Positions 13,147-63,600 of a stretch of DNA of 64,000 nucleotides are shown here, piece after piece (within the stretch, counting starts at the first letter, position 1; every line of letters starts with the position of its first letter). The stretch is from positions 8,209 to 72,208 of the forward strand of contig JBAZGN010000002.1 of the NCBI GenBank assembly GCA_041652815.1, in the 5' to 3' direction. The DNA is from Candidatus Omnitrophota bacterium. GTDB taxonomy: Bacteria > Omnitrophota > Gorgyraeia > Duberdicusellales > 4484-171. Made by a program: the position numbers and the translations under genes. The notes beneath the pieces are model-generated. The model was given only the letters and a program-made list of their open reading frames with translations. It made no database searches and was not told the DNA's origin.

Positions 13147-13163
13147 AAAACAGGCAATATTTC

Positions 13164-21600: not shown

Positions 21601-24600
21601 AAGGGAATTAAATATGCGTATAATCTGGATACCCTGCTGGAGCGATTGAAAAAAGCCGCAGCGACACTGCCCTTAACGGCTTCGTTTGAAAGTACAATTG
21701 TTCTCACGCCCAATGTCAGCGTAATTGAAGTACCGGGAGTTGGCGAGTGTAAATTTGTATCTGAATATGACATTTTAACCGGAAAAATCAAGATTTACTT
21801 TTTATTCGCCTTGGATGACGACGAAACGTTAGCTACCTGCTTACGCAGCACCCCACAGGAAGCTGATCATTTTCTTGTTACAGCTTTGCGTGATGAATTA
21901 CTACACGCTGCAGGATTAAACCAGCAACAAGCAGATAGTACAACTTTAGAGTGGTTGGCGCGGCCCGCCAGTCGAGATTATCTATGGGCTAATATTACCG
22001 TGCTAGATCCAGCCAATAAAAACAGTATGTATGCATTGGGAAGATGGTTTACGTATTTAGAGTCGAAAGAAGTAGGAACATTACGTGATAAAACCCGGAT
22101 TCAAAAATTAGACCAACGAATGACAGGGCTGATTGTTAATGATGTAGTTGAAGATAACCATATTTATCACGCAATAAGCAACTGTTGTCCTTGCCGGCAT
22201 AAATATGGTTATTACCATTATGGAAGAGAATACAACAGTTATTTCAATGTTATGGAAGCAGTTGAAACCGGGCCGACAGGAGCTGACTCTACAGACTTAG
22301 AACGGTATTATGGATATAGCATTCGTTACCGAACAAAAACAGAAAACATTAGAGAGATCCATTTCTCTGCAGCTAATTTTATTTGTGCCACTGTAAATAA
22401 CCTCAACCCGCCATTGGATGGAAGCAATCTTTGGGATGGCATAGAGAATTATAACTTGGTTGAATTTGTACTTTTTTCGCCGAAATTTTCCTCTACCCGT
22501 ATTACCCCTGTACAAGGTATGTGGTTATCGCGTTTCGCTAACATTAAAGATGATCGGATATTAGCTTATTGCGTTATGCACGCCCCGTATATTATTAGAA
22601 CATATGACAGTGATCAGGTCTGGGATGAATTCATTTCAGGATTAAAAGTAGAGGATTTACCAGAGAATTATCAAACTCTTAAAGTAAGTTCATCAATCGC
22701 TAATTGTGAGATAACAAGTGTAAAAAATAGAAAGTGGCAGATTCCAAGTGCAAGTTCTCCGGCAAGGTTAGAGGAATTAAAACGGAACACTAAGAGGCTC
22801 GAGTTAGAGCTTGATAAGATAGATAGTGCCATAGCCAGTGACAGATACAAAGAGCTAGGAGAAAGGCCATTTGAAGGTGTTGAGCAAGATAGCTGGCCTT
22901 ACCGTTATCTATCAACCTTGTTAGCCGAGTTAGGTAATTTACGCAGGTTAAGAATAACATTTGGTGTTGAGTTAAAAGAGGCCAGCAAGGAAATTTCTCA
23001 ATTAGAAAATCCGCCAACCACAAGCTCGCCGGTACCTTCTACACGACAGGCAATAGCTGATATTATAAATGCACGAGAAGCGGTTCGACAAAAATACAGT
23101 AAAGATGCAATTTCCTCAAGTGTTGAGCCTATTTTAAGCCATCTGATTCATGGAAAGTGGGAGATAAACAAAGCTGAAAATGCAGATGCGGTTTATCTGA
23201 AGGGAGATTTGTATTATCGGGACCAGCTAATCGGTTCTGTAGGGAGGAAGAGAGAATCGCAAGGAATACTTATAGATGCAATCGGTTGCGCTATTTATGT
23301 GTGCCATGATGTAAAAATGAACTTACATACATTAGATTTGGCAAAAGAGTTTGCTGCCAGAAGCTATCTGATAGGGTATTTAATCGGCAAAGCTTTGGGG
23401 TTTAATCCCAAGTGGGCATTGGCTTACTATGTGATTACTGCAATTGATTATCAAAGAGATGATCAGATGAGTACGCCTCATACTGGCTTAATAGTTACAA
23501 TGCGTAGAGAATGGGGGAAGCTTGCTACCTCATTAGGATTCAATAAAGGCGAAAAGGATGACCGGCTTGCTGAATTTGATAGGCGAATAAGAAGTAAGAT
23601 TGGGCCAAGCGATGAATTTGGCTATAGGTATTATGACTTTTATAAGTTTGTCCGTGATGTATCGCGCGAGTGGATAAGATGGTTTTATCTGGACAGGGCT
23701 CTGGGTTTTTATGCTCAGAGAGATGTTTCGGACGATGGCCTTCTTGTCCGAATGGGATTTGATGGCAGCTGGCAAGGTGTAAGAAAGCAGTTACAACTAA
23801 GCCTCGAAGAAGAGTTCAGCCAGTTAAATTTAGGCCCAATCCCAGAGCAGGTTTTTACAGGAGTAGACGCAGCAGAGAGCGTAAGCTCGCCTGTTAATGT
23901 AGAGGAGCAGATTAAACAATCAGACAGATTACGAGGATTGGTTATTCCATTAATTGAAGGTATTACTGAGGCTGCCGAAGAATGGTCAGCGTTAGAGAGG
24001 AACGGTTTGGAAGATGAAGCATTAACAGCTAGCCTTAAGTATGCTTACAGGTGTTTAATCTATGCAAGAGATGAATTAGTCCAAATGCAGCAGGATTTAC
24101 AACAGCTTCGTAATGATTTAGAGGCAGGCATTCGTGAGGCAACAAGAGAATTAATGGGGGGTATAATGCCGGCTGAAGAGCATGAAACTTGGTGGAATTT
24201 TGTTATTAAATATACTGAAGAACGTATTGAAGGAATCGAAAAACTATTAGCAGAATTAAACCAGCTTCATCAGATTATACTGAACGTTGCCCAACGGGAA
24301 AATAAAGGCACAGGCTCATCGGCGGTTGCAGCCCGTGCTCAACGGTCGATAGCCAATATTGACGCAGTTGCAGCAAACAGCAGCGCATCTTCGGATGATA
24401 GGTTGCCATTGGTTGAAACGCGCAAAAGCCTTACCTATATATATAGAGGACTGGAAGGTAATAGTTTTAACCCAAGAGGCTCCAGCCCGATAAGTGATGA
24501 TGAATTTAGAGTTCAACTTGGAGAAGATTATTCGCTATGGTTAGCGCAATTCCTAAGCGGCATTAAAGAAGAAGTTGCGCGTCTTATCATTAGCCATTGG

Positions 24601-27600
24601 AATATTTTTAGACGGATACTGCATCCGCACTATCGCCAGGTACAAAAATTGCTGGAAACATCAGAAGATAACCGTCCACGCTTTACCGAACGCGGCCAGA
24701 CTAGTTTTGTGACAAGAGACGTTACGGACGGAGAGATATATGAAAGAGACATATTTGACGTTGTTTGGTTTCAAGTTCCTAAGTTTGTTTCGTGGCCTGA
24801 AAGTATTTGGAAAATTTTTATTGGTACCCTTACCGTTACCACGGCAGATAAAATAATAAGGCAAGGCGGCGCAAGCTCGCCGTTGACAGAGCACCAGAGC
24901 ACTAGCGCACCAGCCTCCAGTAGAAAGACGAGAGACGAGAGACCAACGACGAATGACGTTCTATCAGCAGGTAGCAGTGCGGTAATAAATAACGAGTTAC
25001 CGTTAGTTGGAATAAGAAGTAGCCTTACCCCTATATATATAGGTAATGCGAGAAATATTCACAGCCCAAGAGCGCCGCCAGCGAGTTCACCGCTATTACC
25101 GGGCGCAAGTTCGCCTGCAGGATTTGATGTTAGGGGCGAAGAGTTCAGGCAAAGAAGAAAGGAATTAGTGCGTAATCTCGAAGCAGTGCAAGGAAATATA
25201 CGTAAAACCGAATGGGAAATTCAAAAATTAGAGGGAATAATTTCTACGCGCAGAGATTCGCGCGTTTTAGTAGAGAGAAAAGCAGCACTGAGATTAGAAT
25301 TAAGGAATTTGCTGGCTTACGAGCAACAGTTGCAAAGTATTTGGGCAGAGTTAGCCGAAGAGTTTCAAGAGTTGCAAAAAATAACCCATCTTCAACATAT
25401 TGCAGATATATTACGCCAGTTGCCATCGTTTGAGGGAAGAAGAGACGCTGATAGTGACGCAGGAAGCTCGCCGGTTGCAGACGGCTTTATCAGTGAAAAA
25501 CAGAGAGACAATATTGCCACTGCAATCAGGCGGATGTATCATTCAAGCGCTACAGAAGTTATCCCTTGGATTATTCGGATACAGTCATTAATCGCCCCCC
25601 TTAAGTTAAAACTTAGCGTAGATGCAAAATACGAAAATTTAACCGAACAAATTTCCACAATAGAAATTAAATTGAATAATATATTCCTCGGTCCCCAAGG
25701 CCTAAACCGCCTGCATAAAGACGTTAAAATTGGAACAAGTTTTCTTAACCCGCCAGCGGTAGTTGAAGTTGCTGATTGGAGAGAGCGTTTCGATGCAATT
25801 ATTAGAGATGTAGAAGCTATGGAAAGCGAAATGTCCGGCATATTTAAGCAGCATTCTGATGTCAAAGTAATACAGCAACGCAAAGATGAAACATTGCGAT
25901 ACTTTGGTGTGTTGTCGTACATACTTAAAAGCAGCAGGGCTCTTTTTGACGGCAAACGTAGTAAACAAAAAGTTTCTTTGGCCGTGCTTGAGGCAATAAT
26001 CAAAAAAGCCGCAATTCATGGAGCAGCAGAGAATGTGCATATTATTAATAACATAAAAGGCAGAAATGTTGTTGTTAGCTTAGAGCTTTTGGAATTTGAA
26101 AATATAATTTCTAATTTAGTAACTAATGCGCGGGAAGCACAGGAAAACGATACCCAGAAACGTAAGCTAATTGTAATAGGTATTAATATAAATAAAGGTA
26201 AACTTGTGGTGTATGTGGCGGATATCGGCCCAGGTATAGAAAAAGACAAATTGAAATGTAGTAATTATGATAAATGGCCAGTCATAACCGGTTTAAACAT
26301 TTCAACCAAGAATGTTCATACTGACGGGCATTTTGATGTGGCTGTTGATGAATTTGATAATATACGCGGGTTAGGATTGGCAGAACTTCGTGTATTCCAG
26401 AAAGATGTTGGGGAAAATGGCAAGCGTACGATACGCACTATTTCTCGAGGAAAACTTTTAGGGAAAATCCCGAAAAGCCTTGTTAGAAACCTTGCCAAAG
26501 GCAGGCGTGATGTTCGCGGTACGACTATAGCCGTATATATCCCTGTTGAACATTCCGGACGCAGAAAAACAAGCAGCCCTCTATCGGCAAGCCATAACCA
26601 ACTTACATATTCAGAAAAAGAAAATAATCCCGCGGCAAGCAGTTCCCCTGTTTACGACCACAACTTGGTTTTAGACCAAGTTCAATTAAGGGGCCTTTAT
26701 GAAGCCCAAATGAAAGGTAACTGGGGTCTCATTCAGGGTCGTCAGGCAGAACTGCAGGCAACTATGCTACGTGATGTCGCAAATTCCTGGAATATTTTCC
26801 AGGGAAATGATTATTCCATCAAACCGCTTTTCGATATGAATAATCCTTTGGCGCAGTCCCATACCCTCGAAAAGCAGGAATGCGTAAAATATAATCTTTA
26901 CAAAGTTAACGCTGAAGGTAAATCCACCGGCCATTTAACCGAATTCGATGATAAATCCGAAGCTTCTACCGCCGGCATTCGGGCTTTTATCAATCTTTTG
27001 TTCAGCCATGACCCCAATAAAATGTATAACGACAGGTTCTTGGCCATACTTATCGAAGCCGAAGCGCAATTCTTACGCGAAGTCCATGCCAAGCTTCGTA
27101 CTCAGTTTCCTCAGGATGATGCCGGAGTAATTGAACTTGCCACCAGGCTGCGCCATGAAATGCCTGAACAGGCTACAAGGGTTATTGAGGAAATTTACGA
27201 AAGGCCTCTTGAGGAAATTATCCCGTTTCTACGAGACAATGTGGTTAAGCTCGTGGGAGGAGAAGTAAGAGTACATACAGCTAAGTTTGTAGAGATGGAA
27301 ACACGCATGCTGGCTTCTCACGGCATCTATACTATCACTTTGCCCCGTTATACCGATAGTGTCACAATTTATATGTTCAGCTTCCTTACCTTTATATTAG
27401 GAGCCTGCGGTGCTACCCACTATACTTCAAGCCACAGCGCTAACTATCTCTACGGCCGAAAAGTCCTTGCGCCGGACGGCTCGCAGCTTTTACCCGATGT
27501 TTACGAGCGTTACCGCCAAATCTTACGTAAGATTATCGTTGATAAAATCTATAATGGAGAAGGCTATTCCCTGAATATGGCTTCTCTGAACGACCCTCAT

Positions 27601-30600
27601 ATTATGCGCACCCTTACTTATGAGCGTATGGCAAAACTCTACGCACCCATATTGAACATAAGCCGTGCCGATATCGAACGCATTAATGAAGCTACCAAAG
27701 CTGGCCACCGCATCGTGCTTAATTGCTTAAATGGTTCAACCTATAAGACCCTTATACCGATATTAAAAGAGTTAGGCATCGACTCAAGCGTTTTTATTCC
27801 GGTTAATGCAGAAGAGAGCAGATTCTTTAATGCCGGCTATATGGTGCTTATGGATAAGGAAGGCTATCATAAAATAGAACATTTAGGTGTCGATACAACT
27901 TTAGCTAAAGTTGTGCGCACTATTCCTTATGCCGCAATTTTGGCTAATGAACCTATCGGCAGAAAAGTCTATGAAAAAGACCCGGATTCAGACCGCTTTG
28001 TCCTAAAGCAGATTGTTCCCAATACCCCGGCCCAACAGGCAGTCTTTGCCGAATACGGGCTTACCAGTTATAAACTCGATAACGAACGCTCTCTTGTTGC
28101 GCCTTCTCCCAACAAAACGTTCCTGATCCTTGATATTGTTGATTTTGAGCGTATGGAGCAAGCCGGCACCTGGGCGGATTATCTCTCGCTCTACTTTATC
28201 ACCTATGTATCTACCAACGCTTGGGTGGAATTTGCTAAGGCTATCGAGGGATTACAGGCGGTTATGGCCATGGTTGGTTATAAGAACTTAACCGCATTGC
28301 AGCGGGCGATAGAAGATTGGTATTTTGGCTTACCGCACGAATCCACATTTACCCTGATAGACCAATTAGGCAATCGTATTGTCTTAGAACGCGGGAAATT
28401 CAATAAGTTACGTGTCCACTCTAAAGAGGAAGAAAGCGGTGGCCGAGTTGCCGGAACTGCAGAAGCCGTCACCAACGTTATAGGCCAGAAAGTACTGGCT
28501 ATGCCGGAAAAAAGCGCCGCTGATTCGTTGGTTGCAGAATTGGCGTTTTCTTCAACCCACTATCTTACAAATGGCGGTATGGAGGGTACATATTCTTTTA
28601 CTACCTTCATGGATAGCGCCTTCAAACGCTATAAACTCGTCTCCAAAATAGATAAACGTATTGACATAGAGCATGGCCAGCAAGGGATTATTGCCCAAAT
28701 GATGTATGAGGAACAACAGGCAGCGCTTGCCCGTTGCAAAGCCATTAAGACCAACTTCAATAACTTCTTCTTCTCTTTAGGTAAAGCAGTGCGTGATGGG
28801 ACTATCGACATTCCTGCGGCACGCAGGATTCTTACCGAGGTTATGCCTAAATACCGTGATACCTGGCAGGCGCTTCGTGCCATGACGCTTACCGAAGAAG
28901 AAGTAGCCGGCGGAAAGACCCGTCCCGAAGGCGTACCGATGTACTTTGAAACTGTCGAAGGCCAATCTAAACCATTGGTTACCAAATTCGCTTTCCGTCC
29001 CTCAGGCACCGACCCCTTAAAGAGCAAAGTCTATTTTGATGCCGAGCAAGTTCCAGCTGGCCTTAAGGAAGAATTTGAAGCTTATTTTATTGCGCTTACC
29101 AATTATGATCTTTACGCAGTCCTTGCACACTTTGGTATTGTGCCTATCGTGTCAAAACCGGAAAATATCGTCGAAGCAGCCCAAAAGCTGGACGAAGTCA
29201 GCCTTAAAACACTGACTTTAGATATTGGCCCGCAGGTTGAGGTAAGTTCGCCATCGGCTGAGGGAGCAGAAGAGAAACCAGAGAATGATTCTATAGTATT
29301 TACTGCACGTTCACAAAGCGGAGAGTTAATTGGTTACAGCTTAAATAATGTTCACGGCCATAAAATGCCGGCCACATTTGGCGATAACTACGATATTATT
29401 TGGAATGCCCGCCGAGATGAACTCGAAGTTTATGTCAACGCACACAGCATGCATACTTATATGGTTAATCTTGCTGATGGCAGGCCGCTATGGGATGTTC
29501 GTGAAACAGATATATCTATTCGCGAATATGTAACAGGGGTATGGAAAGAAGCCAGCTCGCCAGCATCCCAGCGGCTCGCTCCTTTCTTTGATAAGTATGG
29601 AATAAATTCTAAAGACAAAGAAGCCGTTATCTTAGCGGCAATTGAATTGAGGGAATCGCTGATAACCTTGAAAAAGCCGGTTAAATGGATGCCGGTTTAC
29701 AAACTCAACAAAACTCTTTTTGCCGGCAAGCCGGTTGTTACGGTCTATAGGTGCGAAGTGGCTGGTCAGGAATTAAACTATGCCATATTTGATTTTAAGA
29801 ATGACAAGAAAGCGCTGCTTCTATTTTTTCTGCAAGGCTATAGTGGCCTTTCAGTCGAAGACCAGCTAGAGGTACGAAGAGTATTGAATATTAAGGATGA
29901 GGATATGGGAAATCTTAATTATCCAGGCCTTGAACAAGCATGGTTTGTTGATTATCCGCAGGATGAATTAGAAACTATTGCGTCGCTGCAGGAGATGCGT
30001 CCAGCGGGAATGATTTCCGGAAGGGATATTCTTGCCAAGAGATTAGAACCTGCGTTAAAACAACAGATAAGAGAACTTACTGTTGGATACTGGAGCCCTG
30101 AAAGTTTACAGCGGCATAATGTCCCGGCAAGGTTAAGCAGCTTTATTGGGCAGCACGTAGGTATAAACGCTGAAGTGCCGGAGATTGATCGTGCTTTTGA
30201 TAAGTTATTTGATTTAAGCCAAGAGGAACAATTAAAATATTTTCCGGATATTATATTTTGGCTTGCGTGGATTGTTGCACGGGGCCACAGCGGATTATTG
30301 CAAAAGTTTGTCTATACCTTAAATCAGGATTCCGGCCAGCTTACCCGCCAACAACAATTTCTGCAATTAGCGCCGCAAGCATGGGAGTTACATTTTAGGG
30401 GTGGCTTAAAGGGTTTACTATTAGACCTAATTTCCCTGCACACGATAGCTACTCCAAAGATTCTTCGTTTGGTAAATGAGGCCATTTCATTATCCAAAGC
30501 CGCAAATGGCACCAGTTCCCCAGCCACAGAAAGCCGCCAGAGCGCTCCTTCGACTTGGTTCGACCTCGTCCTTCGGCAAGCCCAGGACTTCGCTCACCAC

Positions 30601-57600: not shown

Positions 57601-60600
57601 AGCGTAGGTAATTATAAAGGAAAAGTTGATTTAGAAGCTTTGTCCAAAATGGATGAGGATTTACATAATTTGAAAGCTTTGAATGGTTCGATGGTAAGGG
57701 CTATCGAAGATATCGTGGCAAACAGAGATTGGAAAAATGTTTATACTTTGAGCGAAGAAGAAGAAGAGAATGTTTCCGATAGCCTTTTACATAATTTTAG
57801 TGCAGCAATTATGATTATGGGGCATAACCATGCTCACCCACATCTTTATAGAAGGATAGGCAGAAGAATATTTATTATTAATAATGGTTTGAAAGGCTAT
57901 CTGTTGATATCAGAAGACAGAGGTATTGAGTTAGTTGATCCGGGGAAAGAGGCGCAAGTAATAATGCCGGCAGAGGAATACAGAGAACTTCGTCAACCTC
58001 TCATTGAGGTTTCTTCTCCGGTTGCACAAATTGTTACTGACTTAGCTGGAATTATCAACAATGGAAATACTCGGTTGCAGCAGAGTTTAAAAGAGCGGTT
58101 CAACCTCTTCCGTGGCTGGTGGAGGACCGTTCTCTCTGTTGCAGCCGCTTTACCTATTTATATAAGAAAAGGCGCGTTAAGCAAATTTTTAAAGGAAAAT
58201 TTTGGAACAAGGAGGTTAATATGGTTATCCGTGGCTTTGAAAACCTTACAATTACCAGAATTATCCCCACGAGAAATGGGCTTATTGTTAGGGCAACTTA
58301 TCCGGGATGGGCTTCGCGCTTTACCTTTCTTGTCCAGCATAGCGGAAATATTAAGGGCATCAGCGGGTTTAGATGGCAAAATGTCAGTACCGCAGCCACA
58401 AGAATTATTGCGGCAAAAATTTTCTCCAGTATCAGCAAACAGAGCCGTTGGATTTCTTAGAGGATATGTGGACGAAAGAGCTTCTTCTGCTGGAGGCAAT
58501 CATAGTGAGGACATAAACTTGTTCGGGTTAACGCGTTATCAAAAAGTGTTGCTTGAACATTTAGGTATTTCTTTTAATCGGTTTCCGCCGTATGGTTTAT
58601 GGGGCGAAGAATTAAGTATGACAGATTTAGGTATGCAGTTCCGCGACCGTAGGAATGAGCTTCGTGCCGCAATGCGAATTGTATGGCGCAATAAAATGTT
58701 TGCTCGGCTTGTAAGCTATACTAAGCGTCATTATGGAGAAATTAATATTGTAAATGACGTTAATGAATGCTACGTTGAAGCTTTTGTGAGGCTTTCAAGA
58801 AATGCTACTGCACGGCGAGCAGGAGCACAAGCATTTACCTATCCACAGGCAAGAAAAACTATCATTGAGATATGCCGTCAATTACAAAGCGAGGATAGCC
58901 AAGGCAGTTCTCCTCTTGTCTCCGATGACAATGATCAAGAATTAATTAAAACCTCTTCACCTACTGCAATCGCAAGGTCTTCCGCAATTTTCGAGACAAA
59001 AATTACTAACCCCGTGGAAGATATAACAATGCTATTAGGCCGATATAATACATGCTTGGGTGATGGTAGGGGTATTCTAAGCGATTATGGCAAAAGATTA
59101 TTTGCAACAAAGAAATTTAGTTCTATAGATATAGAAAGTTTGCAAGGAGAAACTTTTACGCGCGCAATTGAAAGGCTGGTCTTACCGCCTGAGCATGGTG
59201 GAATAAATAGGGACGCAAATTTATTCATATCCCCTACAGAATATGTTGCAAGGTCAAATTGTAAATTCATAGGCCGAGGTTTGCAAATTTCACACGACTG
59301 TAATAATCATTGTCTATTCTGTATGTCAGGAGGCAAAAATCAAGAGCAATCGTTATTTTATCCTATAGCAATAGAAAGTTTTTTAAGTTTTGCTCAAGAA
59401 GGAGGACGCAAGGCCATACGTTTTACGGTTGTGCCATTCTACTCAAGAACCGACGGTGACGACCTCTCTACTAAAGATGACATTTGTGGTGCAGATATAT
59501 CTGACATTATTTTATTCAATCAATGGAGTTTTAATACATTTTGGCCAGAGGAAAAAGGCATGGCAGATGTACGTAGTGCCGGTTATTCTCCTTTCCATAG
59601 AACTGCATTTTGGTCAAAGAGGGCAGTAAAAAGACTACATGATGCCCAGATTGATGGAAGGAGATTTCGGTTCCTAATCTCATTTCATTTATTCAGGCCG
59701 GAAATTTTATGCGCCGTTCTGGGCATGAATAAAGAACGATTACGTTTTATAATCAGCAAATTTAGCCAAATGTACAAGGATGTTATATTGTGCTGGGGTA
59801 AAGACAATCAAGTATTTGTTTTGCCCCGATGGTTATCACCGGAAGATATTTCTGATCGAAGTTTCCCTACAACGCTTAAAGTGATTGATGGGCTGCAAAG
59901 GAGAATGCTGGAAGATTTATTGGCCGATCACGAAATAAAAAGAAGGATTGTGATAGTGGATGGTGATATTTCATGGAAATACCCATATGCGCGTAGTGTG
60001 TTAGAAAGAATCGTTAAACAAGAAAAGGCGCAATCGGATATCTTTAGCAGGGCTAAAGATATGCTTGTAAAAGAAAGTAACGGCGCCGTTTCTTCGCCTT
60101 TGGCAGGTAGAGAAAGATTTACGACCGTAATTTCCGATATCGGCGGCGTGTTAGGCGGATTCGATGGCGATTCTTTTGTAAAACAGGTTTTACCTTATAG
60201 CCGAATGCCGGCGAAAGACATTGTGGAAGCTCTGCGGACATCTAAGGCAAGAGAGCTGTCCGCCTTAGGAATTATTGATGATAGGCAATTTATCAGAATG
60301 ATTTCTGAAGAATTACAGTTAAAAGGCATAAACTATGGCGATTTTTATAGGATTTATAACTCCGGTTTTACAGTAAATGCAGAAATGGTTGGCTTATTGA
60401 ATTTATTGATGGCACAAGAACTAAAAGTGGCAATTCTTTCTAACATAGGCACTATGCACTACCAAGCTGTAAAAGAATTTATGCCGCAACACGGATTGGA
60501 TATCGAGCGCCTTGATGGGTTTTTCGCATCCTGCGAATTAAGGATGAAAAAGCCAGATCCCGCGATATACAAATATGCTTTGGGTAATTTAGGAGTTAAT

Positions 60601-63600
60601 CCGCAGGAAACCATATTTATCGACGACATGCAGGAAAATGTCGAGGCAGCGCGGGAATTAGGCATAATCGCTATTGGGTTTACGCGTATAGAGCTTCTTG
60701 GACAGACATTAATTGAATTGGGTATTTTAAATAGGAGCTCTTCGCCTTCCAGAGCTAATAATAATGGCAGCTTGGGTATTATGTCGACTTCTGTCGGGAA
60801 ATGGATAGGTTATCATAAAAACAGCCCGCCATTTAACACAGCTGAAGAAACCATTTCTTCTTCTCCGGCGAAAAAAGACAGCAAACATTCTTTTTCTTTG
60901 GCTTTTTCACGCATCCGCAACAGGTTTAGCCGTTTGCCCAGGAACAAACAGCTAAACATATTGGTAGATGCTATTTCTACCGCAGCTTACGTATTTATCA
61001 GCGTAATTTCATTAGGCTTCTTATTCCTTACCACCGGCGTAGCTAATATCATTTTCGGCGTTACCGGAATTCTTTTTGTAGCCCTTAAAGCTACCGCAAC
61101 CTTTATTAAGAAAATCATCAATAGCGGTTTGATTGCCGTTTTAATTTCTGTCGCGCCCTACTTTAAATATTTTGTTATTATAATTATATTTTTTGCCAGA
61201 ACTGTAAACGCTTACGTTAAAAGAATAAATGTGCCGGTTAATCCACGGGCAAATTCACCCGCACTGAAAAATTGCCAAAGTTTAGGCCCTGCATCTTCCC
61301 CAATCGGAAACATCGGCCAAGCCCTAAGAGATGAATTAGTGGTTAACCCGTCTTTACTTTCCTTAAAAGATACCCCTCATTTATTTCTTCAACAGGCTTT
61401 GCAAGCTCAAAATGCCGGCGCAGGGATGATTCATTTTGACCTAATGGATGGGATTTTTGTTGCCGCTAACAACTTAAATATTTTTAGCCCCGAGAAGGTG
61501 TATGAACTGACACAGCGGTTAAGCATTCCTTTGGATGTGCACCTTATGGTTCGTAAGTCAAAACAAGAGCTTGAGTTACTTATCAGCCGCTATCAAGATG
61601 CCGGAGCAGGTATTATTACTGTCCATAGAGAAGTTTTTGAGGGAGAAGACGAGATGATTGATATATTAGAGCATATTCGTAAACAAAATGTAAAAGCCGG
61701 AGTTGCCCTTAATCCTGACCGGCAAGTTTGCGATATCGCTGATGCTTTAGCCTATGCCGATATGGTTCTTATTATGTCAGTGTATCCGGGAAAAAGCGGA
61801 CAGGAATTTATTGTAAATGTTTTAAGCAAAGCAGACATTCTACGTAAACATTACGGTTTCAAAGGCGCGATAGAAATTGACGGCGGAATTAAAACGCCGC
61901 AGGCATTTTTCGTTTCTTTATGGGGAGGAGTTAATATTTTTGTTTCCGGAACAGGGGTATTTAATCAAGAGCCCATTCAAGCCAATATTGCTTTATTAAA
62001 ACAGGCTTTCCGCGCCGGCAAAGCAATGCGGTTAGCTAAGGTGGGAAAATCTATAGAGGCCGGAATTGTATCGTCATCTCTTGCTTTCGATGGGAGCAGC
62101 CGTAATGCTTTGGTTTTCGGGCGCAGGCCTGGAGAAAAGTTGATTGTTTTCGGAAGTAAACTCACAACTATTACTATGGTTGGCTATGGATATAGTTTAG
62201 AGGGCAGAGAGCCGGCAAGCGTTGTTATAGTTTCCCGCGATGGAGAAGATGACAGGTTGGTTGGAGTATCTCAACAAAAACCTGTTGTGGATATTGGCGA
62301 GGATATGTCTGTTTTTGTGCCTCAAAAATATCCGCAAAGGCGTATAGGAATTTTGGTTTTACCTTCAGTTAACGTACAGAGAGCAGAGCAATTACCAGAA
62401 GAAAGCCCTTCTCTTAGCGGGATTGTGGTTACTCGTTATATGAATTATTGGGAGAGAAGAGGTTTTGATGTCGGAGAAGTCGCATTTAAACTTGACGGCA
62501 GGGAAACCATAAGAAGGCCTTATCTTGCTTATCTTACGATGATAGAGCCTAAGAAGCGAAGAGAAATTATCCTCATCGAAAATTTTCAGCGTTATGCAGG
62601 AAATAATATTTGGCTTACATTTTTACCTGTTGAAATTGCGCCCGGCCAAAGTAAAAAAACAAAATTTCATATTATAGCGCCGAACAAGTTTGTTGCGAGA
62701 TGGGATTTTAAAGGGCATAGCAGTAAGGTAGGCAATGGAGGAATTCATAGAAATTTTGGCGCAGGTTCTTCGCCGGTTAAAGATGCGCTTAGAACTACCA
62801 GCCCCACTCGTGGTCCGCCGGAATTTAGCTACAAGCTACGAGCTATCCTTCGAGCATACTCAGGACAAGTGAGCTATGAGTTTAATTCTTCTTCGCCAGT
62901 TCAATTAATTAAAGAAAAGCATCAAGCCCAATTTAAAGAAGAGGCTGTAAATTGGCTTATGGAATGGTTTAGGACGGAAGGCGGCGTCGCTGATGTTACA
63001 CGTAATGGCGCTGAAGAAGTATATGACAAGTTTTATATCTGCCCGGCAGGAACTGTAGGCTGGCTTACTAAGCCGTTTGAGGATTTAAGTCCGGAAGAAG
63101 AAGTTGTATTCCTACGAGCGATAATGAGAAGATATGCTCAATACGCCAAGCTTGAGCCTCAAGGAGGAGTATTGAGGTATTTACCCGGAAGCTTAGAGAC
63201 TTATGAAATTGATTTAACTAAAGCAGGCGAAAGCGGGAAATTAATTCTTAAGTTAAGGCCGACCACTAACGCTCTCCCCTTTGCGGTAATGTATGAGTTT
63301 GGCTATAAAGGCGATGAGTATATCATTACTCTTCACCGCGCGCCTTACGGCGTAGAGCGCCATGTGGTTGTAGGCAAAAAATTCTCCCAGAGTACTCCCC
63401 AGGAACTATCGTTGGAACGGACAGAGCTTATTCTACGCCTAACACGGATGTTTGGAAGTGGGTATGAAACCACCTTTAACCATGTGGGATGTGGAGTACC
63501 AGAATTCCATGCCCACTTTTTTAAATTGATAACGCCGTTATGGACAACTTCGACCCATATTGGTATATCAAGCAAATATCTTAAAGGAATTCAAAGATTA

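What the first reader, a model, noticed from the sequence alone, without database searches (positions are those of the whole stretch)
23020..62900. Recurrent Ser/Pro linker cassettes conserved at the nucleotide level mark the domain boundaries
The 14-mer GCCTCCTCAAGCCC, encoding ASSSP, recurs in frame at about 38296, 38919, 45513, 46808 and 50812. Close variants lie at 41848, 42957, 44152 and 46213. The 8-mer AGCTCGCC, encoding SSP, recurs at about 23025, 23880, 24868, 25458, 29555, 30644, 31268, 35440 and 35585. TCTTCGCC/TCTTCTCC variants dominate after 58000. Identical linker DNA between unrelated domains suggests the domains were added by recombination at linker cassettes, or by iterative duplication. 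The linker dialect also changes by region along the gene.
Basis: seen in the sequence. Interest (0 to 1): 0.65.

Follow-up and report, generated by a model that had tools for sequence, protein, structure and literature searches.

The report
Ser-Ser-Pro junction marks in giant gene
The whole 64-kb window is one giant bacterial (Omnitrophota) gene that strings dozens of ordinary enzymes together, and a tiny Ser-Ser-Pro motif sits at nearly every joint, exactly where a related organism has a stop codon, a spacer and a start codon between separate genes; this gives the first concrete candidate points at which such giant proteins might be joined, shuffled or cut.

Summary
The window is a single open frame of 21,333 codons with no stop, running off both ends. 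It is an Omnitrophota multi-enzyme giant ORF.

- **Motif:** SSP occurs 58 times against 4.0 expected and is the most over-represented tripeptide. It is always followed by L/I/V/A/T/S.
- **Position:** No SSP lies inside a Pfam domain. Sites sit 0-35 residues before the start of nine enzyme domains, and homology blocks shared with other genomes end at them.
- **Gene boundary:** In one relative the same module is a free-standing gene. Its ATG aligns just after SSP and its stop falls just before the next junction.
- **DNA level:** Cassette identity exceeds a synonymous-codon null (the 14-mer 4 versus 0.01). It forms three regional dialects.
- **Recombination:** A 2,494-nt perfect duplicate starts on the first base of one SSP cassette. 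It ends two codons after a one-base variant.
- **Distribution:** Several other Omnitrophota giant ORFs share SSP. Others use LTSKSGGH or EGRSLPNP…EPAP instead.

My reading is a protein-level junction motif joining formerly separate genes, spread by module copy-and-paste at the junctions. Whether it is cut, modified or only a hinge is unresolved. I found no description of it in the literature searched.

The parts
1..63999 (+). Single open reading frame (frame 0), 21,333 codons, no stop, running off both ends of the window. It is the giant multi-enzyme gene that carries all the cassettes.
   Evidence: 0 stops in frame 0 against 766-2009 in the other five frames. Pfam domains; best relatives are Candidatus Omnitrophota.
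5155..5163 (+). SSP junction cassette TCAAGTCCA (SSSPI)
5548..5556 (+). SSP junction cassette TCATCCCCA (DSSPI). It is the start of ~880-aa module copy 1.
   Evidence: Homology to P0003 starts 3 aa after it.
8188..8196 (+). SSP junction cassette AGCTCTCCT (VSSPI). It is the end of module copy 1 (…GYVKAFGGV-SSP).
8209..8217 (+). SSP junction cassette TCTTCTCCA (ESSPS). Its first base is the left edge of the perfect 2,494-nt duplicate.
13165..13173 (+). SSP junction cassette TCTTCTCCA (SSSPS). It is the left edge of the second copy of the duplicate. It fuses the glycogen-synthase module to the ~830-aa module.
16912..16920 (+). SSP cassette AGTTCACCG (SSSPV), 20 aa before PPDK_N
19525..19533 (+). 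SSP cassette TCTTCTCCG (SSSPL)
21451..21459 (+). SSP cassette AGTTCGCCG (TSSPA), dialect A (AGY-TCN)
22753..22761 (+). SSP cassette AGTTCTCCG (ASSPA), dialect A
23023..23031 (+). SSP cassette AGCTCGCCG (TSSPV), dialect A
23884..23892 (+). SSP cassette AGCTCGCCT (VSSPV), dialect A
24481..24489 (+). SSP cassette TCCAGCCCG (GSSPI)
24874..24882 (+). SSP cassette AGCTCGCCG (ASSPL), dialect A
25084..25092 (+). SSP cassette AGTTCACCG (ASSPL), dialect A. It forms a doublet with 25108.
25108..25116 (+). SSP cassette AGTTCGCCT (ASSPA), dialect A
25465..25473 (+). SSP cassette AGCTCGCCG (GSSPV), dialect A
26572..26580 (+). SSP cassette AGCAGCCCT (TSSPL), 6 aa after the end of HATPase_c
26641..26649 (+). 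SSP cassette AGTTCCCCT (SSSPV), dialect A
29245..29253 (+). SSP cassette AGTTCGCCA (VSSPS), dialect A
29554..29562 (+). SSP cassette AGCTCGCCA (ASSPA), dialect A, at the centre of the 185-nt copied patch
30514..30522 (+). SSP cassette AGTTCCCCA (TSSPA), dialect A
30646..30654 (+). SSP cassette AGCTCGCCG (ASSPT), dialect A
31270..31278 (+). SSP cassette AGCTCGCCG (TSSPV), dialect A, 9 aa before the PFK domain
33088..33096 (+). SSP cassette AGCTCACCG (ASSPL), dialect A
33523..33531 (+). SSP cassette TCTTCACCA (GSSPL), followed by the HAD-like start LKKALVLDCD
35278..35286 (+). SSP cassette TCAAGTCCC (TSSPS)
35440..35448 (+). SSP cassette AGCTCGCCA (ASSPA), dialect A, at the centre of the second copy of the 185-nt patch
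35584..35592 (+). SSP cassette AGCTCGCCG (TSSPI), dialect A
36922..36935 (+). Decayed dialect-B cassette GCCTCCGCAAGCCC (ASASP). It has one mismatch to the 14-mer and Ser is changed to Ala.
38296..38310 (+). Dialect-B cassette GCC TCC TCA AGC CCT (ASSSPL), exact 14-mer
38920..38934 (+). Dialect-B cassette, exact 14-mer (ASSSPS)
40108..40116 (+). SSP cassette TCGTCTCCT (SSSPT)
40336..40344 (+). SSP cassette TCAAGCCCG (ASSPL), dialect B
41845..41859 (+). Dialect-B cassette GCCGCCTCAAGCCC (AASSPI), 1 mismatch. It is the start of the permuted ROK module.
42958..42972 (+). Dialect-B cassette GCTTCCTCAAGCCC (ASSSPT), 1 mismatch. It is the start of the PfkB module.
44152..44166 (+). Dialect-B cassette GCCTCTTCAAGCCC (ASSSPT), 1 mismatch. 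It is the end of the PfkB module.
44278..44286 (+). SSP cassette TCATCTCCA (VSSPT). It is the start of the protease module.
   Evidence: Homology to P0010 starts at the next residue.
45514..45528 (+). Dialect-B cassette, exact 14-mer (ASSSPA). It is the end of the protease module.
   Evidence: The AF2 model is ordered up to 7 aa before it.
46216..46230 (+). Dialect-B cassette GTCTCCTCAAGCCC (VSSSPI), 1 mismatch
46813..46826 (+). Decayed dialect-B cassette GCCTCCTCAAGCCT (ASSSL), with Pro changed to Leu.
48850..48858 (+). SSP cassette TCCAGCCCT (ASSPA), before the GNAT module
49240..49248 (+). SSP cassette TCAAGCCCC (ISSPT), dialect B. It is the start of the pyruvate kinase module.
50815..50829 (+). 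Dialect-B cassette, exact 14-mer (ASSSPI). It lies between the end of PK_C (7 aa before) and the glycogen synthase GT5 domain.
52321..52329 (+). SSP cassette TCATCGCCT (VSSPL). It is the end of the glycogen synthase module.
53146..53154 (+). SSP cassette TCCTCGCCT (SSSPL)
53905..53913 (+). SSP cassette AGTTCACCG (TSSPL), 5 aa before the guanylate kinase domain
54574..54582 (+). SSP cassette AGTTCACCC (TSSPI). It is the end of the guanylate kinase module.
55588..55596 (+). SSP cassette TCCAGCCCG (ASSPA)
56353..56361 (+). SSP cassette AGCTCACCT (ASSPI)
57034..57042 (+). SSP cassette TCCAGCCCT (SSSPI), 0 aa before the Metallophos domain (ISVAVIGDIH)
58012..58020 (+). SSP cassette TCTTCTCCG (VSSPV), dialect C (TCT-TCN)
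58906..58914 (+). SSP cassette AGTTCTCCT (GSSPL)
58954..58962 (+). SSP cassette TCTTCACCT (TSSPT), dialect C
60091..60099 (+). SSP cassette TCTTCGCCT (VSSPL), dialect C, 6 aa before the HAD domain
60739..60747 (+). SSP cassette TCTTCGCCT (SSSPS), dialect C. It is the end of the HAD module.
60859..60867 (+). SSP cassette TCTTCTCCG (SSSPA), dialect C. It is the start of a 3-TM module.
61294..61302 (+). SSP cassette TCTTCCCCA (ASSPI), dialect C, 12 aa before Ribul_P_3_epim
62767..62775 (+). SSP cassette TCTTCGCCG (GSSPV), dialect C
62890..62898 (+). SSP cassette TCTTCGCCA (SSSPV), dialect C
63970..63978 (+). SSP cassette TCTTCACCA (ISSPV), dialect C
8209..10702 (+). Copy 1 of a 2,494-nt block that is 100% identical to 13165-15658. 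It encodes the ~830-aa module with two guanylate-kinase-like P-loops. Its left edge is the first base of an SSP cassette. Its right edge is two codons after AGT TCG GCG (SSA).
13165..15658 (+). Copy 2 of the 2,494-nt perfect duplicate
10687..10695 (+). Variant junction AGT TCG GCG (SSA-V), one base from the AGT TCG CCG cassette. It marks the right end of duplicate copy 1.
15643..15651 (+). Variant junction AGT TCG GCG (SSA-V). It marks the right end of duplicate copy 2.
29466..29650 (+). A ~185-nt patch, ~96% identical to 35352-35536, centred on an SSP cassette. The flanks are unrelated.
35352..35536 (+). Second copy of the ~185-nt patch
44287..45519 (+). Chymotrypsin-fold serine protease module, aa 14763-15173. 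It has N-terminal helical repeats, the motifs TNTHVV (His), DIALL (Asp) and GDSGSP (Ser), and a C-terminal helical tail. It is bounded by SSP on both sides.
   Evidence: H and D invariant, S in at least 90% of sequences; pLDDT 93..
42973..44157 (+). PfkB sugar-kinase module. It is 57% identical to modules in two other Omnitrophota contigs, and the homology stops at both SSP sites.
12301..13164 (+). C-terminal part of the glycogen-synthase (GT5/GT1) module. It is 47% identical to the separate upstream gene of relative L006. Here it is fused through SSP to the next module.

Best explanation
The cassettes encode a discrete junction ('punctuation') motif, x-[S/A/T/V/G]-S-S-P-[L/I/V/A/T/S]. It joins whole, otherwise autonomous enzymes and other modules, in frame, into one giant Omnitrophota polypeptide of at least 21,333 residues.

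**Shown**
- The motif is selected at the protein level.
- It sits at the N-terminal edge of each module.
- It occupies the place where a relative has stop codon + spacer + start codon between the same two genes.
- Modules move or duplicate with breakpoints at the cassettes.
- Cassette DNA is more uniform than codon usage allows and falls into regional dialects.
- Some other Omnitrophota giant ORFs use the same motif, and others use a different one.

**Inferred**
- The DNA uniformity is a historical footprint. Blocks of the gene were assembled or remodelled by copy-and-paste of 'junction + module' units, or by microhomology-guided joining at existing junctions. Neighbouring junctions therefore share a recent ancestor.
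- The AGY and TCN serine codon classes cannot interconvert by a single base change without losing Ser. They therefore stay frozen as markers of that history.

**Protein-level role (inferred, unresolved)**
- The motif is read as a module delimiter.
- My split is: about 30% a proteolytic processing site that releases the enzymes, about 30% only a fixed hinge or domain-start cap, about 10% a modification site, and the rest unknown.
For: **One ORF**
- Frame 0 has no stop in 63,999 nt.

**Protein-level motif**
- SSP occurs 58 times against 4.0 expected. The next residue is L/I/V/A/T/S in 58 of 58 sites. The best non-SSP position-matrix score is 9.3, against a minimum of 12.5 for true sites.
- Three codon dialects here all encode SSP.
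- Other genomes use other codon sets for the same motif. L002 (GC 53%) has 4 SSPV in 676 aa. L004 has 27 against 1.8 expected. L005 has 19 against 1.0 expected.
- Eight ordinary neighbour genes in L005 (3,221 aa) have none.

**Boundaries**
- 0 of 58 sites lie inside Pfam envelopes. Sites end 0-35 aa before nine enzyme N-termini.
- Module sizes (median spacing 255 aa) match whole enzymes.
- Between-genome homology blocks end within 10 aa or fewer of SSP on both sides.
- The AF2 model of the protease module (pLDDT 93) is ordered until 7 aa before the SSP.

**Former gene boundary**
- In L006 the ~820-aa module is a free gene. Its ATG aligns to the residue after SSP. Its stop follows GEGYVKA, just before the window's FGG[V/A]SS[P/A].
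- The upstream gene in L006 is the glycogen-synthase orthologue (47% identity). It ends in a stop 28 nt earlier.

**Recombination at cassettes**
- The 2,494-nt perfect duplicate is bounded by cassettes.
- Module order differs between genomes, with SSP at the joints. P0046 has protease-SSP-PfkB, whereas the window has PfkB-SSP-SSP-protease.

**DNA beyond codon usage and dialects**
- Decayed copies ASASP and ASSSL keep the nucleotide pattern.
- Relatives have their own dominant cassettes. GCC TCC TCG CCG occurs 8 times in L005 (0 of 5000 shuffles) and TCA/TCC AGC CC occurs 12 times out of 27 in L004.

**Alternative junction motifs at the equivalent place**
- LTSKSGGH in P0015 and P0030, and EGRSLPNP…EPAP in P0044.
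Against: - There is no experimental evidence on the fate of the protein.
- Only one case of 'junction = intergenic gap' was found, and the direction (fusion or fission) is not established.
- The conserved DNA core is only 9-14 nt, with no flanking similarity. That is too short for ordinary homologous recombination, so the copy mechanism is inferred.
- The perfect 2.5-kb duplicate could be an assembly artefact. No reads were available to check.
- Dialect B codons (TCA AGC CC) also dominate in a different genome (L004). That could mean selection on the nucleotides or codons themselves rather than shared history.
- SSP sites are sparse in the first 21 kb (7 sites). The motif is therefore not needed at every joint.
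- The 185-nt copied patch is centred on a junction rather than bounded by junctions.
Confidence: 0.6

Rival explanations
1. Polyprotein processing. SSPφ is a protease recognition site, and the giant translation product is cut at or next to each SSP. This releases free enzymes, as in viral polyproteins. The cutting enzyme could be the embedded chymotrypsin-fold protease or another peptidase encoded outside the window.
For: - A strict 4-6 residue motif at essentially every boundary is typical of cleavage sites, not of passive linkers.
- The modules are whole enzymes that are free genes in a relative.
- Connectors are very short. PK_C ends 7 aa before SSP and GT5 starts at it. Enzymes that normally work as oligomers (PK, PFK and RPE, from general knowledge) would be awkward to assemble while tethered.
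- A protease module with H and D invariant and S in at least 90% of 19 aligned sequences lies between two SSP sites.
- Other lineages have LTSKSGGH at the equivalent place. That motif contains a Gly-Gly, which resembles the double-glycine sites cut by C39 peptidases (my own knowledge). C39 domains are reported in Omnitrophota giant proteins (10.1101/2023.11.21.568195; 10.64898/2026.06.07.730766).
- West-Roberts et al. state that cleavage points are unknown.
Against: - There are no proteomic or biochemical data.
- Pro in the core is unfavourable at P1' for most serine proteases (general knowledge).
- In some modules β1 of the next domain starts directly after SSP, for example the Metallophos domain with a gap of 0. 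The prime side would then be buried.
- The protease's substrate-pocket region does not co-vary with the junction type. The window has TEPGDSG…AIHAQLGPIG and the SGGH-type P0015 has SEPGDSG…GVHAQRGGIG.
- Homologues of the protease also occur as free proteins with apparent signal peptides, such as P0011. Its role may therefore be unrelated.
- Close doublets of SSP 7-23 aa apart would yield tiny peptides.
Confidence: 0.3
2. Passive structural joint. SSPφ is only a favoured way to end one fold and begin the next, acting as a strand or helix breaker and a cap before β1. The giant protein stays intact as beads on a string. The DNA uniformity comes from copy history alone.
For: - The motif sits 0-12 aa before the first secondary-structure element of many domains. 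The residue after Pro is aliphatic or small, as expected for the start of a buried β-strand.
- Ser and Pro are common linker residues (general knowledge).
- The motif is absent from many related giant ORFs that join homologous modules without it, including L001, L003 and P0001-P0006. It is therefore not essential for fusion.
Against: - A passive joint does not need an invariant S-S-P core, 14-fold over-representation, or conservation across genomes of different GC content.
- The flanks are not flexible or low-complexity.
- Different lineages each fix their own equally strict motif. That looks like recognition by a lineage-specific partner.
Confidence: 0.3
3. DNA-level recombination signal. The cassettes are sites for a dedicated recombination system that shuffles modules in frame, and the SSP coding is incidental.
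For: - All cassettes lie in the same frame and orientation. Any cassette-to-cassette exchange would therefore stay in frame.
- Synonymous positions are conserved.
- The perfect duplicate is bounded by cassettes.
Against: - Three unrelated nucleotide versions (AGC TCG CCG, TCA AGC CCN, TCT TCN CCN) and further versions in other genomes all encode the same peptide. A DNA signal would conserve the bases, not the translation.
- There are no inverted copies.
- The core is 9-14 nt with no flanking structure.
- No recombinase can be seen, because the whole window is one ORF.
Confidence: 0.08
4. Modification sequon. The Ser-Ser-Pro is a site for phosphorylation (a proline-directed kinase) or O-glycosylation, marking or regulating each module.
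For: - A short strict motif with an acceptor Ser next to Pro and a constrained following residue resembles bacterial O-glycosylation or kinase sequons (my own knowledge, a lead only).
- The gene and its relatives carry many glycosyltransferase and kinase domains. A Pkinase domain lies in the L001 neighbour.
Against: - No strong hydrophobic segment (19-aa hydropathy scan, threshold 1.8) lies between aa 1672 and 20318. The ATP- and PEP-using enzymes there imply a cytoplasmic location. Periplasmic general O-glycosylation is therefore unlikely.
- A modification site has no reason to sit only at module boundaries.
Confidence: 0.1
5. Chance or compositional artefact. The k-mers recur only because Ser and Pro codons are common.
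For: TCTTCGCC alone is not significant against the synonymous-shuffle null (P = 0.07).
Against: - SSP occurs 58 times against 4.0 expected, with a maximum of 11 in 1000 shuffles.
- The 14-mer, AGCTCGCC and TCAAGCCC were each reached in 0 of 2000 synonymous shuffles.
- 0 of 58 sites lie inside domains.
Confidence: 0.01

Closest known systems
Giant ORFs of Candidatus Omnitrophota: 'Archaeovorins' (West-Roberts et al. 2023, bioRxiv 10.1101/2023.11.21.568195) and the 'multi-enzyme metabolic cluster' class (Nielsen & Lui 2026, bioRxiv 10.64898/2026.06.07.730766)
   Same: - An uninterrupted ORF of more than 64 kb.
- The best relatives are all Omnitrophota MAG proteins.
- The same domain repertoire: GT5 starch/glycogen synthase, GT1, PGM/PMM, PPDK, ROK, HATPase_c, GNAT, HAD and NUDIX.
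- Clusters of transmembrane segments.
- The same open question of whether the product is cleaved.
   Different: - Neither paper mentions a linker, a junction motif or cleavage points. 'Linker', 'junction' and 'polyprotein' have 0 occurrences in the texts searched, and West-Roberts state that cleavage points are unknown.
- The SSPφ punctuation, its DNA dialects and its equivalence to an intergenic gap are not described there.
- No C39, S8 or SecA domain lies in this window. The gene continues beyond it.
Viral polyproteins with protease-specific cleavage motifs (picorna-, calici-, arteri- and astrovirus 3C-like or S1-type proteases)
   Same: - One long ORF of unrelated mature proteins.
- A short conserved motif at each boundary.
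- An embedded chymotrypsin-fold protease. Foldseek hits include EAV nsp4 and the astrovirus protease, and phmmer weakly hits a norovirus 3C-like protease.
   Different: - This is a cellular (bacterial) gene about 10 times longer or more.
- Cleavage is not demonstrated.
- The motif has Pro at its centre.
- The protease pocket region does not track the junction motif.
- The closest structural matches are equally SplB and HtrA, which are housekeeping or secreted proteases.
Modular PKS/NRPS megasynthases: conserved inter-module boundaries as recombination points (general knowledge)
   Same: - Very large modular ORFs.
- Module swaps and duplications with breakpoints at conserved inter-module sequence.
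- Locally homogenised DNA at boundaries.
   Different: - PKS/NRPS modules are paralogous and work as an assembly line with structured linkers and docking domains.
- Here the modules are unrelated free-standing enzymes, and the shared element is only 3-5 codons.
Ser/Thr/Pro-rich interdomain linkers of cellulases and cellulosomal scaffoldins (general knowledge)
   Same: Ser and Pro residues lie between catalytic modules.
   Different: - Those linkers are long, variable, low-complexity tracts.
- This is a fixed tripeptide core with ordinary flanks.
Gene-fusion ('Rosetta stone') multi-enzyme proteins such as AROM, CAD and FAS (general knowledge)
   Same: Neighbouring pathway genes are fused in frame. 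A relative keeps the same pair as separate adjacent genes.
   Different: - The scale is far larger, with 60 or more modules.
- A uniform, lineage-specific junction motif is used at the joints.
Double-glycine leader cleavage by C39 peptidase domains (class II bacteriocins and ABC exporters; general knowledge)
   Same: - This applies only to the alternative junction motif LTSKSGGH seen in relatives P0015 and P0030.
- That motif contains Gly-Gly, and C39 domains are reported in Omnitrophota giants.
   Different: - I did not test this.
- It does not apply to SSP.
- No C39 domain was seen in this window.

Membership tests
Omnitrophota giant multi-enzyme ORF (Archaeovorin / 'multi-enzyme metabolic cluster' class) | Uninterrupted ORF of tens of kilobases | tested here: met
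   21,333 codons with no stop, open at both window ends.
Omnitrophota giant multi-enzyme ORF (Archaeovorin / 'multi-enzyme metabolic cluster' class) | Belongs to phylum Omnitrophota | tested here: inconclusive
   Every named homologue is a Candidatus Omnitrophota/Omnitrophica MAG protein. No marker-gene phylogeny is possible because the window holds only this gene. No close relative was found in GTDB representatives or JGI contigs.
Omnitrophota giant multi-enzyme ORF (Archaeovorin / 'multi-enzyme metabolic cluster' class) | Many distinct enzyme Pfams tile the polypeptide (GT5, GT1, PGM, PPDK, ROK, HATPase_c, GNAT, HAD, NUDIX), none dominating | tested here: met
   The list matches those in 10.1101/2023.11.21.568195 (section 8) and 10.64898/2026.06.07.730766 (section 8).
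Omnitrophota giant multi-enzyme ORF (Archaeovorin / 'multi-enzyme metabolic cluster' class) | Transmembrane segments anchoring the protein | tested here: met
   A simple hydropathy scan finds clusters at aa 3-440, 1147-1375, 1629-1672 and 20318-20396. No dedicated TM predictor was run.
Omnitrophota giant multi-enzyme ORF (Archaeovorin / 'multi-enzyme metabolic cluster' class) | C39 or S8 peptidase and SecA-like domains | tested here: not met
   None found in the window at E <= 0.01. The gene extends beyond both ends, so absence from the gene is not shown. An S1-type protease is present instead.
Protease-processed polyprotein | Embedded protease with intact catalytic residues | tested here: met
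   In a 19-sequence alignment the His and Asp are invariant and the Ser is present in at least 90%. The AF2 model has pLDDT 93.2 with a chymotrypsin fold.
Protease-processed polyprotein | Conserved short motif at the boundaries of mature products | tested here: met
   
Protease-processed polyprotein | Motif matches the protease's specificity | tested here: inconclusive
   No specificity can be read from the model. The pocket-region sequence does not co-vary with the junction type, which is weakly negative.
Protease-processed polyprotein | Cleaved products observed | not testable with these tools
   This needs proteomics or expression experiments.
Low-complexity Ser/Pro (PT/ST-type) flexible linker | Long, variable, compositionally biased S/T/P tract | tested here: not met
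   The core is a fixed tripeptide. Flanking 5-residue windows from -40 to +42 have near-average hydropathy and disorder-prone content.
Low-complexity Ser/Pro (PT/ST-type) flexible linker | Lies between folded domains | tested here: met
   
Site-specific recombination sites (shufflon sfx / integron attC type) | Conserved DNA core, often with inverted-repeat structure or copies in both orientations | tested here: not met
   There are at least three different DNA cores for one peptide. Reverse-strand copies number 0-1. No conservation extends beyond 9-14 nt.
Site-specific recombination sites (shufflon sfx / integron attC type) | Cognate recombinase nearby | not testable with these tools
   The whole window is one ORF and no flanking genome is available.

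The most novel reading that the evidence does not exclude
Omnitrophota giant genes are bacterial polyproteins. Whole operons of cytoplasmic enzymes are fused in frame through lineage-specific punctuation motifs (SSPφ here, LTSKSGGH or EGRSLPNP…EPAP elsewhere). These motifs are cut after translation to release the individual enzymes. The same short cassettes also serve as in-frame joints that let modules be swapped between and within giant genes.
Probability: 0.25. Interest if true: 0.85.

Novelty: new variant of a known kind. Interest (0 to 1): 0.62.

Why it matters
Giant ORFs of 20 to more than 140 kb are a hallmark of Omnitrophota. Nobody knows whether their products act as one chain or are cut, and the main study says the lack of known cleavage points blocks structural analysis.

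A crisp, countable junction motif changes what can be done:
- It coincides with domain edges, with homology-block edges and with a true gene boundary in a relative. That gives an objective way to cut these proteins into units for structure prediction and annotation.
- It gives 58 precise places to look for neo-N-termini in proteomic data.
- It gives a concrete model for how such genes grow, by in-frame fusion and cassette-bounded module exchange.

If cleavage were shown, this would be a cellular counterpart of viral polyproteins on an unprecedented scale.

Tried and rejected
- **Close relatives of the window.** A GTDB genome scan with the PK-GS piece and a JGI metagenome scan with the protease module found nothing. 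The region 22756-25476 has no homologue in the 5.8-billion protein set. Site-by-site conservation in a sister genome could therefore not be tested.
- **Long disordered linkers around SSP.** Flank composition is ordinary.
- **Internal translation starts after SSP.** The following codons are mostly GTT, GCA, ATT, ACN and CTN, not start codons.
- **Inversion or shufflon-type sites.** There are no reverse-strand copies of the 14-mer and only one of AGCTCGCC.
- **A ROK domain 'truncated' by insertion of SSP + PfkB.** The SSP-bounded unit is instead a circularly permuted but complete ROK, with the C-half before the N-half. It is not evidence for insertion.
- **Regional Ser codon bias as the cause of the dialects.** Non-motif Ser codon usage is flat along the gene.
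- **Extended DNA similarity around cassettes within a dialect.** None exists beyond 9-14 nt.
- **Co-variation of the protease pocket region with the junction type.** None is seen.
- **Sequence search of the protease against PDB.** It gave only marginal hits, to a norovirus 3C-like protease and SplC. The fold search gives generic S1, HtrA and viral protease matches with no assignable specificity.
- **A second punctuation motif in the SSP-poor first 21 kb.** None was found.

Full report
**What the window is**

Frame 0 of the plus strand has no stop codon in 63,999 nt. The other five frames have 766-2009 stops each. That is why the ORF lister returned nothing: the ORF runs off both ends. The product is at least 21,333 residues.

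Pfam finds these domains:
- guanylate-kinase-like P-loops (several)
- NUDIX
- two glycogen/starch synthases (GT5 + GT1)
- PPDK_N + PEP-utilizers
- a nucleotidyltransferase
- HATPase_c
- PGM/PMM
- PFK
- ROK
- PfkB
- a trypsin-like peptidase
- GNAT
- pyruvate kinase (E = 1e-94)
- Metallophos
- HAD
- ribulose-phosphate 3-epimerase

All named homologues are Candidatus Omnitrophota MAG proteins. This matches the giant ORFs described for the phylum. These are the 'Archaeovorins' of West-Roberts et al. 2023 (10.1101/2023.11.21.568195). They also match the 'multi-enzyme metabolic cluster' class of Nielsen & Lui 2026 (10.64898/2026.06.07.730766). Seymour et al. 2023 give further background (PMC10066038).

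A hydropathy scan finds TM clusters only at aa 3-440, 1147-1375, 1629-1672 and 20318-20396. The ATP- and PEP-using enzymes between aa 1672 and 20318 therefore share one compartment, which I infer to be the cytoplasm.

**Checking the observation**

- The 14-mer is exact at four sites, not five. The '46808' copy is at 46813, has one mismatch and encodes ASSSL.
- At the protein level SSP occurs 58 times against 4.0 expected. It is by far the most over-represented tripeptide, z = 27.
- The motif is sharper than 'Ser/Pro linker' suggests.
  - The residue after Pro is L/I/V/A/T/S in 58 of 58 sites.
  - The residue before the Ser pair is S/A/T/V/G in 54 of 58.
  - The best non-SSP position scores 9.3 bits, against a minimum of 12.5 for true sites.
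  - The flanks are compositionally ordinary.
- I kept the protein fixed and shuffled synonymous codons. The 14-mer (4 versus 0.01), AGCTCGCC (11 versus 1.8) and TCAAGCCC (11 versus 2.9) were never reached in 2000 shuffles. TCTTCGCC alone is not significant.
- The dialects are real.
  - AGY-TCN is used in 17 of 21 sites between 21.4 and 35.6 kb.
  - TCN-AGC is used in 11 of 13 sites between 38.3 and 50.9 kb.
  - TCT-TCN is used in 9 of 10 sites after 58 kb.
  - Permutation gives P = 5/20000 for codon class and 0/20000 for exact codon pair.
  - Non-motif Ser codon usage does not change along the gene.
- Conservation covers only 9-14 nt, including synonymous positions, with no flanking similarity.

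**The cassettes mark module boundaries**

- None of the 58 sites lies inside a Pfam envelope (P ~1e-5).
- Sites end 0-35 residues before the extrapolated N-terminus of PPDK_N, PFK, PfkB, PK, GT5, guanylate kinase, Metallophos, HAD and RPE. For example, SSP-ISVAVIGDIH begins the metallophosphatase. One SSP also sits between the end of PK_C (7 aa before) and the start of the glycogen synthase.
- The median spacing is 255 residues and module sizes match whole enzymes.
- Homology with other genomes ends at the sites.
  - The PfkB module is 57% identical to two Omnitrophota contigs over aa 14326-14712. This is exactly the interval between SSP 14322 and SSP 14720, and the neighbours are unrelated.
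  - The protease module aligns from the residue after SSP 14760 to within 1-7 residues of SSP 15174 in many relatives.
  - The guanylate-kinase module 17981-18189 and the ~830-aa module behave the same way.
- An AlphaFold model of the protease module, built on a 19-sequence alignment, has pLDDT 93.2. It is ordered up to a helix that ends 7 residues before the SSP, and the last four residues have low confidence.

**The junction stands where a relative has a gene boundary**

On a Logan contig (L006) the ~820-aa module is a free-standing gene.
- Its ATG aligns to the first residue after the window's SSP (MAGILSPFAP against SSP-SANFISPFSP).
- Its stop follows …GEGYVKA. The window continues from that point with …GYVKAFGG[V/A]-SS[P/A].
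- The gene upstream in L006 is the orthologue (47% identity) of the window's glycogen-synthase module. It ends in a stop 28 nt before that ATG.

The same gene pair is therefore separate in one organism and fused through an SSP junction here. I could not determine the direction (fusion or fission), and this is a single case.

**Evidence for recombination at cassettes**

- A 2,494-nt block is 100% identical between 8209-10702 and 13165-15658.
  - Its left edge is the first base of the cassette TCT TCT CCA.
  - Its right edge is two codons after AGT TCG GCG (SSA), which is one base from the dialect-A cassette AGT TCG CCG.
  - The sequence outside both edges is unrelated.
  - I cannot exclude an assembly artefact.
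- Two decayed dialect-B cassettes keep the nucleotide pattern while losing the peptide. These are ASASP at 36922 and ASSSL at 46813.
- A ~185-nt patch at 96% identity is shared between 29466-29650 and 35352-35536. It is centred on a junction and has unrelated flanks.
- Module order differs between genomes with SSP at the joints. P0046 has protease-SSP-PfkB, whereas the window has PfkB-SSP-SSP-protease.
- Most adjacent modules are not paralogues. Iterative duplication is therefore a minor contributor.

**The primary constraint is on the protein**

- Three unrelated nucleotide versions in this gene all encode SSPφ.
- Other Omnitrophota giant ORFs carry the motif with their own codon preferences.
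  - P0007/L002 (GC 53%) has 4 SSPV in 676 aa.
  - P0018/L005 has 19 against 1.0 expected, with GCC TCC TCG CCG 8 times (0 of 5000 synonymous shuffles).
  - P0045/L004 has 27 against 1.8 expected, mostly TCA/TCC AGC CC.
  - P0009 has 6 against 0.6 expected, and P0046 has 4 against 0.5 expected.
- Eight ordinary genes next to the L005 giant ORF (3,221 aa) have none.
- Other relatives lack SSP altogether. These include L001, L003, P0001-P0006 and P0008.
- Some relatives carry a different recurrent motif at the equivalent place, for example after the conserved tail of the protease module. LTSKSGGH occurs about 12 times in P0015 and 7 times in P0030. EGRSLPNP…EPAP occurs 8 times in P0044.
- Lineage-specific 'punctuation' therefore seems to be a general property of these genes.

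**How it most likely works**

Shown:
- a protein-level junction motif at module and gene boundaries
- module exchange and duplication with breakpoints at the motif
- DNA uniformity beyond codon usage, arranged in regional dialects

Inferred:
- The dialects are footprints of block-wise assembly by copying 'junction + module' units, or by joining at existing junctions.
- AGY and TCN serine codons cannot interconvert by one step without losing Ser, so the codon class is frozen history.
- The sharing of dialect-B codons with L004 leaves room for selection on the codons themselves.

For the protein-level role I cannot decide between a processing site and a fixed hinge.

In favour of processing:
- the strictness of the motif
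- its lineage-specific alternatives, one of which contains Gly-Gly
- the very short connectors between enzymes that normally oligomerise (general knowledge)
- the autonomy of the modules in a relative
- an intact chymotrypsin-fold protease module flanked by SSP

Against processing:
- No data show cleavage.
- Pro sits in the core of the motif.
- β1 of some domains starts directly after SSP.
- The protease pocket region is nearly the same in SSP-type and SGGH-type proteins.
- Free, apparently secreted homologues of the protease exist.
- Foldseek gives only generic matches: SplB, HtrA1/2, MucD, EAV nsp4 and the astrovirus protease.

A purely DNA-level recombination signal is unlikely, because the peptide is conserved and the bases are not. 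Chance is excluded.

**Comparison with what is known, and novelty**

- The gene is a new member of the known Omnitrophota giant-ORF class.
- I did not find the junction motif, its dialects, its equivalence to an intergenic gap, or the alternative motifs in relatives in the literature searched. 'Linker', 'junction' and 'polyprotein' are absent from both giant-gene preprints. West-Roberts et al. state that cleavage points are unknown.
- The closest analogies are viral polyprotein cleavage sites, recombination at PKS/NRPS inter-module boundaries, and classic gene-fusion multi-enzymes. The membership tests are listed separately.
- I rate it a new variant of a known kind, of moderate to high interest. 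It turns the question 'are giant proteins cut, and where?' into a directly testable one.

Noticed in passing
window 1-63999: The entire 64-kb window is one open reading frame with no stop (21,333 codons), open at both ends. The gene is therefore longer than the window.
   Followed up: yes
window 8209-10702 and 13165-15658: A 2,494-nt block is repeated at 100% identity 4,956 nt apart. It encodes an ~830-aa module with two guanylate-kinase-like P-loops. It is either a very recent duplication or an assembly artefact.
   Followed up: partly
window 6478-6545, 7321-7388, 8986-9053, 9835-9902, 13942-14009, 14791-14858: There are six copies of a 68-nt stretch encoding the P-loop FAIYSGPPGGGKG, at 72-100% identity. 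The ~830-880-aa module occurs three times, and each copy holds two guanylate-kinase-like domains.
   Followed up: partly
window 41860-42972 (aa 13954-14324): The ROK sugar-kinase unit appears circularly permuted. A C-terminal-type half (…RIVLFGGV…IIGAV…) precedes the N-terminal half (AAGVDLGGTNIR…NVGTG), all inside one SSP-bounded module.
   Followed up: partly
window 29466-29650 and 35352-35536: A ~185-nt patch at ~96% identity, centred on an SSP junction (…EYVTGVWKEASSPASQRLAPFF…), has completely unrelated flanks. It is either a short conversion or insertion tract, or a small mobile junction element.
   Followed up: partly
window 24403-24446, 24997-25040, 33220-33263, 42798-42841: A 44-nt motif recurs, encoding …LPLVETRKSLTYIYS… It is part of a ~65-aa unit that follows some SSP sites (SSP-LTEHQ… and SSP-LTEYQ…). 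Its function is unknown.
   Followed up: no
window 44287-45519; relatives P0009-P0048: A conserved Omnitrophota protease module has three parts: ~35-aa helical repeats (…AIAPLEDIE…), a chymotrypsin-fold core (TNTHVV / DIALL / GDSGSP), and a helical tail (…DMLxALEG..S.F…). About 40 representatives were found, both inside giant ORFs and as free proteins with apparent signal peptides. The AF2 model has pLDDT 93.
   Followed up: partly
relatives P0015, P0030 (Omnitrophota MAG proteins MBD3265014.1, MBD3263790.1) and P0044: Other giant ORFs are punctuated by different recurrent motifs. [L/I]-T-S-K-S-G-G-H occurs about 12 and 7 times. EGRSLPNP..GG(D/E)EVTEPAP occurs 8 times. Each sits where the window has SSP, for example after the protease tail.
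   Followed up: partly
window aa 3-440, 1147-1375, 1629-1672, 20318-20396 (nt ~7-1320, 3439-4125, 4885-5016, 60952-61188): Hydrophobic, TM-like segments are clustered. None lies in the ~18,600 residues between aa 1672 and 20318. The three-TM cluster at 20318-20396 is itself an SSP-bounded module.
   Followed up: no
L001 (JAPLLM010000112.1) and L003 (ERZ25039529 contig_49371): Related giant ORFs in public assemblies are called as strings of overlapping genes in different frames. L001 contains Ns at one break. These are probably frameshift or assembly errors that fragment giant ORFs.
   Followed up: no
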